From positions 4,030,001 to 4,094,000 of the forward strand of contig CM074522.1 in NCBI GenBank assembly GCA_037379345.1: a stretch of 64,000 bases of DNA. Reading direction: 5' to 3'. The stretch comes from Perna viridis (taxonomy: Eukaryota). This document shows positions 24,001 through 30,000 of the stretch, piece after piece (position 1 is the stretch's first letter; each line of letters begins with the position of its first letter). A program made the position numbers.

Positions 24001-27000
24001 TTACACCACAAATTACCTCTACCACAGACAGCTTCTGAATTCTCTATGGCATGGTTTGTCTTATAATTTCGAAGTGCGTCTACGTGAAAAGAAGTAAATA
24101 AATGTGTTTCCTAAGAGTCGTCAATACACTTCCAAATTTTGATTTTATTCTTGCAAGTCAGCTTCACAAAGCAAAAGTAAAGTGATAATGGATACTTCAG
24201 ACACTATGAAGTCAGCCTCATATCATGACCTGCACTTAGAGATCGATAGGTAAAGGAAAACTATTGACTAAACTATACGACAAACGCGATGCCTTTTCAT
24301 TATGTATAGTCAACTTTCCTTTTATCTGTGGCAACATCCCTTCAGTACCTGCGTATAAAGTTTTCATATCACAACTCATACGTTATACCATAGCTTGACG
24401 TAAATATGCAGACTTTTCGTATCGCCTTAGACTTCTTAAAACTAGGCTTCTGGAACAGGGTTATGTTGCTACAAGTCACCACTACAGAAGTTTAATGGTC
24501 GTCATCATGAACTCGTGTATTGTTTCGGTTTATCCACCTGCACATGAAAACTTGTAATAGTTTTTTTTCCCTCTTTCGTCTACTCTAGACTTGACTTTTT
24601 ATGAGCAACTCGGCGAATGTTTCTAGAATAGAATAGCAGAGGAGGTTTACCCTACCGGTGCACCAGGTCCATGCTCTCAGTTGTTTTTTTTTATTTTTTT
24701 TAAATTTTTTTTTTATTTTATAAAAAAATCTTTGTTGTGTTTGTCTGTTTCCATGTCTGGCCTTTGTTCCTGGATTACATTCGTTTGATTTCTTCTAGAA
24801 TATTGGTTCCCTTGATTACCTTGGTTACCGGAATTACGAAGATGTAATTAATAGCTAGATGAACCCTACCCTAAACTTTGTGAGGTTTTTAGTGGTCAAG
24901 GAAGCCGAGGAGGTCGGACGAAAAAAAAGATTACTCGATTATCTTAAATACACCCACAATATGATATTGATATTATTTTCTTGATTGCATGATAAATGAA
25001 ATGAAATGAAATAATTCTTACCTTCTAGGGCACGTGGGTGTCACTCCCGGTTTTTCGTGGAAGTTCATATGTTGCAGGTGTTTTTGTTTGGTGTGTGTGT
25101 CTGTTATCAAATATTTCTCAATATTACGTCTGCGCCAATCTGTTAGAGTACAATTACTCGAACTGACATAGAGTAGCGTAATCAAAGAATAATTTTGATT
25201 AAATTAACTTCTGTGTCATGTGCTATAGGTGGATTCCAGAGGGATTCGGGCACGATAGCCTGCCCCTTATTGTTGTATGTACGAAAAAAAAATCGACACT
25301 CGTATGGGTTGTATTTTTGCAATTATATAATAATAAATAACACCAACATACCGAATCAAGGATGTAACTGTTTTTTTTTTATCTAAGTTAAATATGGGAA
25401 TTTATAACCATCCACATAAATTCAAGTTTATTCAATGTATATGTCTTTAATGTGAGTTATGTTCAGAAATATAGTGTCGTTGAAATATTTTCTCTGAAAA
25501 GATTTAAAACATACGGTGAAAGGTGAAATTCAGTATCGTGGGAACGCTGTATTTTTACTGAAAATGTCATTTTACAGCTTGTAAACTCTTACATGACACT
25601 TATGAAGTATGTTTAAATTTTTTGCTCCAGAAATGGGCGTTTAAATGCATCTCATTTATTTATCTGTTTCGCTCATTGCAGTCATATCTCATCCTGGTTT
25701 AAGTTTCACATTTCAGTAAAAAAATATCTTAAATTTCGATGCACTACTTTGGACCATATGTTTCAAGCAATGAGCGCTTCGTTGTTTAAATGGTGGTTAT
25801 CATTTTACATCGGGTCTCGGAACACAATCTATTAGAATCATCAAAAAATGAGACAAGTACGGTCCAACATTTAAATAGAACTACGAGTAATAAACCGATT
25901 GAAACCATTCGCGGATTTGAAAAGAAATAAAAACTATGTCAGTATATGTAACATAGGCGAGACACGAAGAAACAAACATGCACATAAATTATATGAACAT
26001 TTGCACGAACTATTATATTCGAATATTTAGTGGTCAATAATCAGAAAAAGAAACGTTAACACATCAAAAGGTCATTTTTGTTTTCATTTGTTTTTATTGC
26101 TTTTAGCTTCCATATTTCCTCGATTTAACGTTTTACCAGAATGCAACTACATACTATACGTGCATAATAATTCATATATGGCACAATAACCGGGTTATTT
26201 CATAACATGGTGGAAACGGGAATATATGATTTACCTCCTTTTTATGTAAATATACTTACAGAAGAAGAAGATGGTTTGTATCCAATTAAGGTGTCTCGGG
26301 GCGCATATGATTTACAATGATCAATGAATACTTAATATAAAGACACAATATAAAATAAAATTTGAAATATTACACCATGGATGGGAATCAGTTTCTTCCA
26401 GATTCAGAGAAATAATGAATTATTCAAAGTCTAACACACTATTTCTTGTTAAATGCTAGTGAACATATACGATGAGGTTAACCCATGATTATCGCCTCAC
26501 TGAGAAGAATGAATTGATAAACATACCAATGGCCTTTAATATATCTAAGATCTCCTTGTCTCATAAGAGAAAGAACATTTTGAAGAGTTATTCAGATTAC
26601 AAATTTTTACACATTGTATAAAAACAACTATTTTTCTGTTCTACAGAAGGTAAAATCATTCGTCAATTAGTTGAGTTAACCCAAGGCAAGCTAACAACCT
26701 ATCCAAGTTGTCTTAAAATTGGTTCGTGACTAGTTTTTGGTTCGACTTGTCATGTTTTATAGTTTCAAAATATTGTCGGTATTATTAGACGGAGAGTAAA
26801 CCACCGAAACACGTGACTGAGATTTTTAATCATTTTGGTTACGGTTATGTTCAGGTACGACAATTATTTACAGGTGTTCATTTCAACTAAAAGTAGGCGT
26901 GTTTTTCCCACACTCTACAAAACAGACTGTCGCGTGCCGGTTAATGATAAAATATACGAATGTTCCACAAAGGGAAACGTTCCGATGCATAGACCAATCA

Positions 27001-30000
27001 AATAACACTATGACAATCCATGGGACCACGACTTTCAAGTTTGATTGACATAACACAGAATTATTTTTTATCAATTATTTGAAAAATGCATACTGGTAAA
27101 AATTGAATGCTGTTTGATAATATTCGGTAAGATTTTATTCAAATTCGAAAAAAAAAATTGAAATGTACAATGAATTTTGTGTAAATCAAAGCCTGAATAA
27201 TCCTAAATCCTGACTAAAACGGACACTTTCAAAAGTCCTTACGTATCAAGAGTATTTTGATCCTTCGTAAACTGAACACCTGTCCAAACCGGACATTTGT
27301 TTTAACCGAAAACCTATCTAAACCCAATTAATGTTAAGTCCAAAATGGGTTCGGTTTAGAGATAGGTTTTAGTGTACATTGTCCAACAGCATAAATTGAC
27401 AAAATAGCATTATGAAAGCAATAATAACAAAAGAGATGATTTTGATTTTCTTATTGTTAATTTCCCATTTCAAGGTGGTGAAGCACCCACTTATGGTATT
27501 TGTATTTTACAACTGGTCCGTTTTGCTCGTATTTGCAATAAAGTATTAGATTTTAATGAACGCAATAAATTCCTTACAGGAAAGCTTTTGCACCAGGGGT
27601 GCCGGTATCAAAAACTTTTTTATGTACAAAACTTTGATACAAATATATGATAGCATTTGCAGGTTTGTAGTTAAAAATGGCATTGTCTGCCCGTTTTTTA
27701 AGGAAAATATAGTCTATAAAGCACTTTATTTAAAACATCTGATGGATTTATCAACCGCCCTTAATGAATTGATTGACCATGGATTCAATTTTAAAATTAT
27801 TGTGTATACTTTGAGCCTCGTTTTCACAAGTAGAGATTTTCGACCCCAAATTGCATCCCTGTGTACAAACTAAGTTATTTTTTTAATATTGTACCATATT
27901 GATTCTTGACATAACTACTCCAAATCCAGCGCACCGAAATTGTAGTGACCGAATGTTTCTATTGCTGGGTGTTTTAGATTCTTCAATATGTTCTGAGGTA
28001 GCTTTCAATAACTGCGATAGTTCTTTAAGTGGGTATCTCATTTGTCTATATGCTGAGGTGTTCCGTGGAGAAAATTGGCTGTATTATTAAAAGATTTTTA
28101 TGGTGTTTTTGTTTGTTGTTTCAGTTCATTTCGACCTTACACTAAGGTTATACACTTGTGCATTTTTTACCTTTCACCATATCCGTTCTTTTTTCTATTA
28201 TACCCATAATCTCTTGTTTGAATAAATATGTGCTTTCACTTTAATATACACTACAATATGATACATGAATGAACTGATTAGATAACATTTATAACGAAAT
28301 AGTTTTAAAGGTCATCATTTTTTCATTGACGAATACCATTGGATTCAATTTGATTCCATTCAATGATATTCTATTTTTCAAAAGTTGGCCTATCGAACAA
28401 GAAGACGTCAAATAAAATATACTTTCTATATCTCCCAAAATACATAGTGAATTATATTGTTATGTACAGGTGATTGAGATGACTACACATGATAAACATC
28501 AGTTCAGTATACGAAGGCGGATTAACAAAATATATATTGCTTGTGTAAAGTGTATTAAATCACAACGAAGTTTCTTTTAAATTTTTAATTTTTTTTTATG
28601 AATAATTCGGTGGTTGTAACTTGAAAAGCAGCATATGCTTCCCGCACCTAGTCCCATTTTCTAGTAGAATCGGGTGTCTGACAGTTGGTGTTCATTCTAT
28701 AAGCATGTCATCTTAGTTATTTCATATTCTTTGTTGAGTGTGTCTATATTCTTTGTTGAGTGTGTCTATTTTCTTTGTTGAGCGTGTCTATATTCTTTGT
28801 TGAGTGTGTCTATTTTCTTTGTCTGGTCGTTGTTCCTTGATTGTGTTCCTTTGTTTACATTTTAATATAATTTTAATGATTGTGCTTCGTTGAAACTATG
28901 TATACCCAGCGTTATATAAATGATAAAACTAGTCACTTGATTGCTACGAATACCTATGCCAGGGCAGAATGTTAAAAGAAAGTTGTTGTATGAGCAGTGG
29001 AATTCAAAGCAATGTTTTTTCATTGCTTACAATCGGGCCACATTGCAGAACTATGGTGGCAAAAATTTACTTTTTAAAACATATCAAAGTAATAAAATAT
29101 GCTATATGAATGTCCTTTTAAAGCGTAACAAAGGAATCAATTTATTTCAGGGTGAAATGATTTCAACAGGGAGCAACTAATTTTCATATTCTAATGGGAA
29201 GACTATTTGTAATCCATTTGACATCCATCAAGTTTATTTCTGCTCCTAGCAAGAAAGCCATTATACCATTTTTAGATTATCTTTAAATTAAAAATAATTT
29301 ATTTTTAAGGACTACTCCTGCATTGATGGGGTCATAAAGGTAAGCTTCCTCTGTGTGGTAGATCATCAAAGAATATATAACGTATTATTGATGAACTTGG
29401 AAATATCTCACTAACTCACGATACCATTATATACACGTGTCCATCTCCCGGCCTAAAATGGATGTCCTTGGAACTCTTCGTGACAGGAAAATGGAGATTC
29501 ATCTTGCTTCAAAATACATAATAAAAACAGACCAAATAAATCGAGAAAAGGGACAAATGAATATAACTCTCACATCTGAAGTCACATAAGAACTGTTCAA
29601 AGCTTGACCTGAAAATAAATCTTATAATTGTTCTTGATGGTCTGATGGACTAAATACTAAAGTATATATCAAACTGGGTTAAAATCCATCTGATGATACT
29701 GATAGCATTTTTGCAGTTAAAGTTGTAACATGTGCATGGTTTGATGGTAGCATTTACTTATGACTTTACAATTTCATTGTAGAGAGAATGTTAACAGCGA
29801 TGGATCCAGGGAGGGGAGGGGTGATCCATAGGTCATATATTTGTGGGAAAATTTTGTCAGTTCCGTCTGGAACTCCTCTTTAAAAAACTCTGGATCCGCC
29901 TCCTGATAGACAAGTTAAACCAGTGCATTTGTATAATTAAGTTGTTGAGAGGGTGTCCATGCAAAAACCAGGCATTGGGTGGCACATGGCAAATTTTGTT

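What the first reader, a model, noticed from the sequence alone, without database searches (positions are those of the whole stretch)
26849..27135. Orphan full promoter copy pointing away from HES, followed by a splice donor: possible promoter capture
Copy D keeps the core module and also a CCAAT box exactly 55 bp past the HES site, as in copy A. TTGATTGACA follows 42 bp later (40 bp in A), although the intervening DNA is poorly alignable. No HES exon follows. A donor-like TCG|GTAAGA lies at 27126/27127, close to where the HES 5' UTR ends in copy A. Inference: D may drive a short non-coding first exon of a + strand transcript, either a lncRNA or a leader spliced to the intronless GPCR CDS 14.6 kb downstream. 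The latter would put a receptor under Notch/HES control.
Basis: partly seen in the sequence, partly recalled or inferred. Interest (0 to 1): 0.7.

Follow-up and report, generated by a model that had tools for sequence, protein, structure and literature searches.

The report
Extra gene-less copy of HES promoter
A mussel-like genome carries a well-preserved second copy of a HES gene's Notch-responsive promoter with no HES gene behind it; it most likely serves as a regulatory element of the nearby HES gene, and nothing found links it to the distant receptor gene.

Summary
D (26849-27101, +) is a collinear copy of the promoter of the window's only HES gene (copy A, minus strand, 719-~470). The core matches at 81 of 90 bases. 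CCAAT lies 55 bp after the core in both copies. TTGATTGACA occurs exactly twice in the window, at matching places in A and D. A TATA-like block also aligns. Similarity ends near the predicted start site, and no HES exon follows.

D is not the only orphan: copies B (14311-14397) and C (19985-19915) also lack HES exons. Spacers between motifs are near random (44 of 117), so the motifs look preserved by selection. High-affinity CSL sites are concentrated in the 27 kb upstream of the HES gene (13 of 17).

Best reading (0.45): a promoter-derived, Notch/CSL- and bHLH-responsive module in the HES gene's regulatory landscape, perhaps transcribed into a short non-coding RNA.

The GPCR link has no support (about 0.04). 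Its coding sequence is complete from a local ATG, donor and acceptor motifs occur at or near chance rates, and 14.6 kb of repeat debris plus a GPCR pseudogene lie between. Transcription could not be tested. The window is bivalve (mytilid-like), not human.

The parts
26849..26938 (+). Copy D core module: E-box, GCGTG plus CSL/Su(H) site, and HES class-C site
   Evidence: BLAST against copy A 719-631: 90% over 90, E 5e-29. 81 of 90 identical, and 50 of 91 columns invariant across the four copies.
26871..26876 (+). E-box CAGGTG. Kept in A, C and D; CAGATG in B.
   Evidence: The motif name is from general knowledge.
26897..26912 (+). GCGTGTTTTTCCCACA: GCGTG followed by a single high-affinity CSL site (TGTGGGAA on the minus strand, 26905-26912)
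   Evidence: The 16-mer is present in all 4 copies and nowhere else; chance expectation 0.07. No paired partner site at 11-21 bp in any copy.
26929..26938 (+). GTCGCGTGCC, holding the HES class-C site CACGCG (26931-26936 on the minus strand)
   Evidence: Identical in A, B and D; mutated to GTCTCGTGTC in C.
26994..26998 (+). CCAAT box, 55 bp after the core as in copy A
   Evidence: offset 55 in both A and D, absent at that place in B and C.
27041..27050 (+). TTGATTGACA, a PBX-MEIS/PREP-type decamer (9 of 10 to TGATTGACAG)
   Evidence: Only 2 exact matches in the window, at A 530-521 and here. The decamer consensus was seen in a passage of PMC5240567. C keeps 8 of 10 at a nearby offset.
27076..27086 (+). 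AT-rich block TATTTGAAAAA, aligned to A's TATA-like TATATGAAAAA (496-486)
   Evidence: alignment: 10 of 11, lying 25 bp (D) and 24 bp (A) after TTGATTGACA. Neither copy matches the TATA consensus well.
27124..27132 (+). Donor-like TCG|GTAAGA (exon/intron break at 27126/27127)
   Evidence: consensus match 6 of 9, a common score. GGTAAG itself is rarer, 12 on the plus strand.
27252..27647 (+). Repeat debris that starts about 150 bp past the predicted start site. It comprises a satellite-like repeat with a palindromic hairpin (27252-27374) and an old fragment of the window's interspersed-repeat ORF (27408-27647).
471..719 (-). Copy A, the proximal promoter of the HES gene: core 719-631, CCAAT 575-571, TTGATTGACA 530-521, TATATG 496-491
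1..425 (-). HES gene: exon 1 at 425-312 (38 codons), intron, then exon 2 from 66 running off the window start (bHLH basic region)
   Evidence: Pfam HLH hit on the ORF 1-165. All 12 of 12 HES-family proteins hit it. HMM E 8e-12.
14311..14397 (+). Copy B core module; no HES exon follows
   Evidence: (68 of 91 to D).
19915..19985 (-). Copy C core module, the most diverged, with the HES site mutated; no HES exon follows
   Evidence: (59 of 90 to D).
41744..42811 (+). Intronless rhodopsin-family GPCR coding sequence (355 codons plus stop), the proposed target of promoter capture
   Evidence: Pfam 7tm_1 E 1.4e-29. Homologues 58-82% identical, the named ones from Mytilus. N-termini align from the local Met.

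Best explanation
D is a paralogous copy of the HES gene's proximal promoter, running from about -250 to the start site. It is one of three extra copies (B, C, D) in the 27 kb upstream of the single HES gene. It arose by duplication of a promoter-length unit, with or without a HES gene that has since vanished beyond recognition.

Its transcription-factor sites have been kept by selection while the DNA between them drifted to near-random. These sites are an E-box, a single CSL/Su(H) site with an adjoining GCGTG, a HES class-C site, CCAAT, a PBX-MEIS-type decamer and an AT-rich block.

It therefore most likely still works as a cis-regulatory module. It would be switched on by Notch/CSL together with bHLH activators and damped by HES protein. 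It would act as a promoter-derived distal enhancer of the HES gene 26 kb away, possibly giving rise to a short non-coding transcript.

Shown: the copies, their order and spacing, the uneven conservation, the absence of HES exons, and the CSL-site enrichment. Inferred: selection, factor binding, Notch response, the target gene and any transcription.
For: 1. Homology covers the whole promoter and is collinear. The core matches at 81 of 90. CCAAT is at the identical 55-bp offset. TTGATTGACA is exact in A and D only. An AT-rich block matches at 10 of 11.

2. Conservation is very uneven: core 81 of 90 against pooled spacers 44 of 117 (Fisher p 2e-15). If only A were constrained and D had drifted since the split, about 54% core identity would be expected; P of at least 81 of 90 is 3e-13.

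3. The 16-mer with the CSL site is intact in all four copies, even in C, which is only 59 of 89 identical to A.

4. B and C keep collinear vestiges beyond the core: ACNTTCC at offset 37-38 in A, B and D, and TTGATTCAAA in C. The duplicated unit was therefore promoter-sized.

5. YGTGRGAA sites number 17 against 7.18 +/- 2.36 expected, and 0 of 100 shuffles reach 17. 13 of the 17 lie in 1-27000 and 4 in 27001-64000 (binomial p 0.004). The 9 sites outside the modules share no homology with each other.

6. Precedent: mouse hes1 has 12 RBP-J sites in 7 conserved blocks within 57 kb upstream, with enhancers looping to the promoter (PMC3285341, abstract and passages). Promoters that act as enhancers are described (PMC8602369, abstract in the listing).

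7. The copies share only the module, with no common flanking repeat.
Against: - There is no expression, chromatin or binding data, and no orthologous DNA from another species, so function rests on within-window paralogue comparison alone.
- The selection argument assumes the spacers are homologous and neutral. Gene conversion confined to the core could mimic constraint.
- Constraint over most of D's history does not prove function today.
- A pure enhancer has no obvious need to keep CCAAT, the decamer and the AT-rich block at promoter-like spacing. This fits a live promoter better.
- With the four related modules removed, the CSL enrichment is modest: 9 of 13 in the first 27 kb, p 0.046.
- The module has one CSL site, not the paired arrangement typical of many Hes/E(spl) promoters.
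Confidence: 0.45

Rival explanations
1. Dead relic. D, like B and C, is the leftover promoter of a HES paralogue whose transcription unit was deleted or destroyed by repeat insertion. It does nothing now. Its good preservation reflects a recent loss, or gene conversion from copy A.
For: - No HES exon survives: a regex over six frames finds 1 bHLH site and 0 WRPW. tblastn with 12 HES proteins hits only A. A HES HMM over 3616 ORF pieces gives only A exon 2 at E 8e-12, with the next hit at E 3.8.
- Similarity to A ends near the predicted start site.
- Repeat debris begins at 27252.
- The block aligned to A's TATATG reads TATTTG.
- B and C look like further stages of decay: 67 of 90 and 59 of 89 to A, with CCAAT lost.
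Against: - Under neutral decay all positions should fade alike. Here the spacers are near random (44 of 117) while the core is 81 of 90 and three further islands are exact or nearly so.
- Even the oldest copy, C, keeps the 16-mer CSL block perfectly.
- The repeat ORF fragment just downstream is old, at 51% amino-acid identity to the best copy. The gene-less state is therefore probably not recent.
Confidence: 0.22
2. Live orphan promoter of a non-coding RNA. D starts a plus-strand transcript near 27100. It is either spliced from 27126/27127 to an unknown downstream exon, or unspliced and ending at one of the AATAAA/ATTAAA signals from 27537 on.
For: - Promoter-type elements are kept at promoter-type spacing right up to the predicted start site: CCAAT, the decamer and the AT-rich block.
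- A G|GTAAG donor lies within about 25 nt. GGTAAG occurs only 12 times on the plus strand, about a 2% chance per 100 bp.
- No AATAAA or ATTAAA occurs before 27537.
- The stretch 27100-27400 folds better than shuffles (z -2.7, 1 of 100 shuffles as good), with a long hairpin at about 27305-27375.
Against: - The first exon would be only about 20-25 nt.
- By a 9-position consensus the donor scores 6 of 9, as do 575 of 3692 plus-strand GT sites.
- The hairpin is part of a satellite-like repeat also found at 44346-44547.
- There is no Rfam family in the window at gathering score, and none in 26500-31000 below E 0.91.
- No transcript evidence is available.
Confidence: 0.2
3. Promoter capture by the GPCR. 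D drives a short leader exon spliced over 14.6 kb to an acceptor just upstream of the intronless GPCR coding sequence, which would put the receptor under Notch/HES control.
For: - Same strand, with a donor-like site at 27126/27127.
- Acceptor-like sites exist upstream of the ATG, for example 41494/41495 with 10 of 14 pyrimidines, 248 nt before the ATG.
- A Mytilus trossulus HES homologue and a GPCR homologue are listed with the same longest-contig length, 60,198,110. This is very weak linkage.
Against: - The coding sequence is complete locally. The N-terminus aligns with all 10 homologues compared, an in-frame stop lies 7 codons upstream, and TATATAA sits at 41640-41646.
- Acceptor-like sites with at least 9 of 14 pyrimidines occur about every 188 bp on this strand, so those near the GPCR are at the chance rate.
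- The receptor belongs to a large mytilid expansion: 5 paralogues are listed with the same Mytilus coruscus longest-contig length, 790,244. Local promoters would be expected for such copies.
- Repeat fragments on both strands and a minus-strand GPCR pseudogene lie between D and the receptor.
Confidence: 0.04

Closest known systems
Distal RBP-J/CSL-bound cis-regulatory modules upstream of mouse hes1 (CRM1-7; PMC3285341, abstract and passages read)
   Same: Both have a Hes gene with its promoter plus several further CSL-site-bearing blocks spread over tens of kb upstream. Mouse has 12 sites in 7 blocks within 57 kb. Here there are 13 YGTGRGAA sites in 27 kb, four of them in the module copies.
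   Different: The mouse CRMs are not described as copies of the promoter. Here three distal modules are recognisable paralogues of the proximal promoter, in alternating orientation. Binding and looping were shown in mouse and nothing was tested here.
Notch-responsive Hes/E(spl) promoters with Su(H) sites combined with proneural E-boxes and HES autorepression sites. The architecture is recalled from general knowledge. Rebeiz et al. 2012 was seen only as a citation in PMC4887206 and could not be read.
   Same: An E-box, a high-affinity CSL site and a CACGCG-type HES site sit within 70 bp, directly upstream of a bHLH-Orange gene in copy A.
   Different: There is a single CSL site and no paired site at 11-21 bp in any of the 4 copies. 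In D no bHLH-Orange gene follows.
Epromoters, meaning promoters that also act as enhancers of distal genes (PMC8602369 and PMC11879118; abstracts seen in the search listing)
   Same: A promoter-type element is proposed to regulate another gene at a distance.
   Different: Epromoters are promoters of live genes. D has no recognisable gene of its own, and its enhancer activity is only inferred.
Non-coding upstream leader exons of GPCR genes with intronless coding sequences (general knowledge, recalled)
   Same: Same strand and a donor-like site; the coding sequence lies in one exon.
   Different: There is no transcript evidence, no above-chance acceptor, and a plausible local TATA.

Membership tests
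Notch/CSL-responsive Hes-type regulatory module | High-affinity CSL site (YGTGRGAA) | tested here: met
   TGTGGGAA at 26905-26912 (minus strand). It is intact in all 4 copies inside an invariant 16-mer.
Notch/CSL-responsive Hes-type regulatory module | Paired Su(H) sites (SPS: inverted sites about 15-17 bp apart) | tested here: not met
   No partner with up to 2 mismatches at spacings of 11-21 bp on either side, in 0 of 4 copies.
Notch/CSL-responsive Hes-type regulatory module | Lies directly upstream of a bHLH-Orange gene | tested here: not met
   Met for copy A only. No bHLH, Orange or WRPW relic follows D, B or C.
Notch/CSL-responsive Hes-type regulatory module | Activated by Notch signalling and bound by CSL in vivo | not testable with these tools
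   Needs ChIP or reporter assays, or Notch perturbation.
RNA polymerase II core promoter | TATA or initiator at the right distance, and a mapped start site | tested here: inconclusive
   D has TATTTGAAAAA aligned to A's TATATGAAAAA (10 of 11). Neither fits TATAWAW, which itself occurs 265 times in the window. There are no start-site data.
Upstream leader exon of the GPCR gene | Donor and acceptor better than background, and a junction seen in cDNA | tested here: inconclusive
   The donor scores 6 of 9, as do 575 of 3692 GT sites. Acceptors occur at the background rate. cDNA is not available.
HES pseudogene | Recognisable relics of HES coding exons downstream | tested here: not met
   The HES HMM finds only A exon 2 among 3616 ORF pieces, with the next best at E 3.8, on the minus strand 2 kb upstream of D. 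tblastn with 12 HES proteins gives no hit better than E 0.58 outside A.
Transposable-element-borne repeat | Copies share flanks or termini, or sit inside a repeat family | tested here: not met
   Only the module itself is shared. A and D upstream flanks score below shuffles: 277 of 300 shuffles reach the observed score. No repeat hit overlaps 26849-27251.

The most novel reading that the evidence does not exclude
A HES-type, Notch-responsive promoter has been kept intact by selection long after losing, or never having had, a HES gene. It now starts a plus-strand transcript of its own. That transcript may be a Notch-inducible non-coding RNA, possibly processed from the hairpin about 200 nt downstream, or at the extreme the leader of the GPCR. 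Together with B and C, this would show serial duplication of a promoter as the source of new regulatory elements in a bivalve Hes locus.
Probability: 0.2. Interest if true: 0.55.

Novelty: new member of a known kind. Interest (0 to 1): 0.3.

Why it matters
If the modules are functional, the locus shows in plain sequence how distal Notch-responsive elements of a Hes gene can arise by copying the gene's own promoter. It also gives a compact, testable motif grammar (E-box, GCGTG plus CSL site, CACGCG, CCAAT, PBX-MEIS decamer) for Notch targets in molluscs, where searches found no promoter study. The more striking claim, a neuropeptide-type receptor wired to Notch, is not supported. Without it the finding is of moderate, specialist interest.

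Tried and rejected
- A 34-nt core pattern with up to 3 mismatches found only D itself, because A differs by an indel. BLAST then found the copies.
- Pfam on 102 ORFs of the window gave only HLH (A exon 2), 7tm_1 (the GPCR and a fragment at 35109-35348), the Cys-loop receptor domains, and two sub-threshold chance hits. Nothing turned up on the plus strand between D and the GPCR.
Repeated with the whole 58-aa ORF, it gave no hit.
- HES exon 2 searched on its own gave 12 HES-family proteins at weak E-values. They were used as probes. The two exons were searched separately and never joined.
- A weak tblastn hit to bHLH helix 2 at 18087-18293 (minus strand, downstream of C; E 1.9-4.7 for 3 of 12 queries) is not among the 25 best-scoring hits listed from the HMM search. 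It was rejected as chance.
- tblastn with the 70 GPCR homologues found no second copy in the window.
- Rfam at gathering score on the whole window gave 0 matches. At the E-value threshold on 26500-31000 it gave one chance-level snoRNA match, E 0.91. There were no tRNAs.
They were replaced by the tool's own shuffles and analytic tests.
- Rebeiz et al. 2012 is not held.
- Not checked: orthologous DNA of other bivalves and any transcript data. The contigs that carry the identical GPCR protein (P0001, longest 2015 nt) could not be read.

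
Full report
**What the window is.** It is AT-rich (about 33% G+C), has no N, and is eukaryotic. The intronless GPCR at 41744-42811 has its named relatives in Mytilus species at 58-64% identity, and unnamed hits reach 82%. The HES exon has its best named relatives in molluscs and other spiralians. I take the window for a mytilid-like bivalve, not human.

The window is littered with fragments of one interspersed repeat family that carries an ORF. 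More than 15 fragments were found by tblastn and BLAST.

**The observation.** BLAST of 26800-27200 against the window finds three other copies of a roughly 90-bp module:
- A at 719-631 (minus strand): 90% over 90, E 5e-29.
- B at 14311-14397 (plus strand): 77% over 88.
- C at 19985-19917 (minus strand): 76% over 70.

In the four-way alignment 50 of 91 core columns are invariant. Pairwise identities are A-D 81/90, A-B 67/90, D-B 68/91, A-C 59/89, D-C 59/90 and B-C 56/90. This suggests C split first, then B, then A and D.

The invariant columns fall in three blocks:
- TTACAG.TGTT, which holds the E-box.
- GCGTGKTTTTCCCACA, which holds one high-affinity CSL/Su(H) site. This 16-mer is in all four copies and nowhere else, with 0.07 expected by chance.
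- TGTC.CGTG.C, the HES class-C site CACGCG, intact in A, B and D.

The motif names come from general knowledge. The PBX-PREP/MEIS decamer TGATTGACAG was checked in a passage of PMC5240567.

- CCAAT lies 55 bp after GTCGCGTGCC in both A and D.
- TTGATTGACA lies 40 bp (A) or 42 bp (D) further on. These are the only two exact matches in the window.
- The spacers are close to random: 21 of 55, 7 of 22 and 16 of 40, pooled 44 of 117, against 0.28 expected from composition.

A local alignment of the 330-360 bp after the core is collinear from offset 38 in both copies. 5 of 300 mononucleotide shuffles reach its score. It adds two islands:
- ACNTTCC at offset 38, also present in B at offset 37.
- An AT-rich block: A TATATGAAAAA 496-486 against D TATTTGAAAAA 27076-27086, 10 of 11.

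Similarity ends at about D 27101 and A 471, roughly 25-30 bp after that block, where a start site would be expected. The next 60 bp match at 16 of 60. Upstream of the core there is no similarity: 277 of 300 shuffles reach the observed score. D is therefore a copy of the promoter and of nothing else.

**No HES gene follows D, B or C.**
- The only HES gene is A's, on the minus strand. Exon 1 is at 425-312 (38 codons, AAA|GTGAGT donor). Exon 2 runs from 66 off the window start and encodes ISKPVMEKRRRARINASLSELK (Pfam HLH).
- A six-frame regex finds one bHLH basic region and no WRPW.
- tblastn with 12 HES-family proteins hits only A. All 12 hit exon 2 at E 3e-9 to 2e-6, and everything else is at E 0.58 or worse.
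- An HMM built from 11 HES N-terminal regions, run over 3616 ORF pieces, finds exon 2 at E 8e-12 and nothing else below E 3.8.

The spliced HES model was searched exon by exon. The joined protein was not made or searched.

**Does conservation imply function?** If A's core alone were constrained and D had drifted freely since the split, the spacer identity of 0.376 implies an expected core identity of about 0.54. The observed 81 of 90 has a tail probability of 3e-13. Even C, the oldest copy, keeps the CSL 16-mer perfectly.

This is a phylogenetic footprint among paralogues, and it argues that D's sites were under selection for most of its history. There are three caveats:
- The argument assumes homologous, neutral spacers.
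- Gene conversion limited to the core could mimic constraint.
- Past constraint does not prove present function.

**The wider landscape.** High-affinity CSL matches (YGTGRGAA) number 17, against 7.18 +/- 2.36 in dinucleotide shuffles, and 0 of 100 shuffles reach 17. 13 of the 17 lie in 1-27000, the region between the HES gene and D. The other 4 lie in the remaining 37 kb, which is at expectation. The binomial p is 0.004. Leaving out the four module copies gives 9 of 13, p 0.046.

The nine extra sites are unrelated to one another and lie outside the repeat fragments listed. No copy has a paired Su(H) site.

This picture resembles mouse hes1, where 12 RBP-J sites sit in seven conserved blocks within 57 kb upstream and enhancers loop to the promoter (PMC3285341, abstract and passages). 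D is the most distal element of this domain in the window.

**The splice donor and the GPCR.**
- TCG|GTAAGA at 27126/27127 is real. It matches the 9-position donor consensus at 6 of 9, as do 575 of 3692 plus-strand GT sites. The stricter GGTAAG occurs 12 times on the plus strand, about a 2% chance per 100 bp.
- With a start near 27100-27106, the exon would be only about 20-25 nt.
- The GPCR coding sequence is complete from its local ATG. Its N-terminus aligns with all 10 homologues compared. An in-frame stop lies 7 codons upstream and TATATAA sits at 41640-41646. TATAWAW is common, at 265 in the window.
- Acceptor-like sites upstream of the ATG occur at the background rate of about one per 188 bp.
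- Between D and the GPCR lie repeat fragments on both strands (27252-27647, 28593-28862, 30388-30775, 36869-39591). A frameshifted GPCR pseudogene lies on the minus strand at 34849-35348.
- Nothing ties D to the GPCR beyond shared strand. The link can only be settled with cDNA, which I could not obtain.

**What it most likely is.** D is a promoter-derived regulatory module of the HES locus. It would respond to Notch/CSL and bHLH activators and carry a HES feedback site. It probably acts at a distance on the HES gene and perhaps gives a short non-coding transcript (0.45).

The retention of CCAAT, the decamer and the AT-rich block at promoter spacing is the main point in favour of a live promoter of a non-coding RNA (0.20). 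A functionless relic remains possible (0.22). GPCR capture is unlikely (0.04).

**Novelty.** Multiple CSL-bound modules upstream of Hes genes, and promoters acting as enhancers, are both known (PMC3285341; PMC8602369, abstract seen in the listing). Distal modules that are plainly copies of the gene's own promoter, in a mollusc, make a new member of that kind. Searches found no paper on mollusc Hes promoters. Those searches cover only the held open-access library.

**Left open.** There were no transcript, chromatin or cross-species DNA data. The contigs holding the identical GPCR protein could not be read, and Rebeiz et al. 2012 could not be read.

Noticed in passing
window 34849-35348 (minus strand): A decayed rhodopsin-family GPCR pseudogene. 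TM2, TM3 (with a DRH motif) and TM4 lie in three different reading frames. It is not a close paralogue of the GPCR at 41744 (Pfam 7tm_1 E 4.5e-6).
   Followed up: partly
window 57353-58627 (plus strand): A long open frame encoding a Cys-loop ligand-gated ion channel in one piece (Neur_chan_LBD E 9.5e-38 plus the membrane region).
   Followed up: no
window, many places (for example 6540-7420, 16884-18052, 24184-24823, 30388-30775, 38026-39591, 48742-49305, 61031-62401): One interspersed repeat family with a conserved ORF that has no Pfam match. More than 15 fragments occur on both strands, at 36-97% identity. Its kind was not determined.
   Followed up: partly
window 27252-27374 and 44346-44547: A 17-bp satellite (ACCAAACACCTGTCTAC, 8.5 copies at 44365-44507) has a short inverted fragment just downstream of D. 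That fragment folds into a long hairpin at about 27305-27375. Its unit contains ACAGGTGTTC, the same string as the module's E-box region, which may be coincidence.
   Followed up: partly
window 2426-2450 (minus strand) and 5264-5271 (plus strand): Further consensus CSL sites (CGTGGGAAA) lie in the HES upstream region. The one at 2426 has a CAGGTG E-box about 11 bp upstream and ACGCGT just downstream. It may be another small Notch-plus-bHLH module unrelated in sequence to A-D.
   Followed up: partly
proteins P0005 and P0075: The Mytilus trossulus GPCR homologue and the HES homologue are both listed with a longest contig of 60,198,110 bases, so they may share a chromosome there.
   Followed up: no
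window 49406-49926: A 34-bp tandem array of about 15 copies (TACCTCCATGGTACCGTTAGAAGGTTGCCATAAA) lies next to a repeat-family fragment.
   Followed up: no
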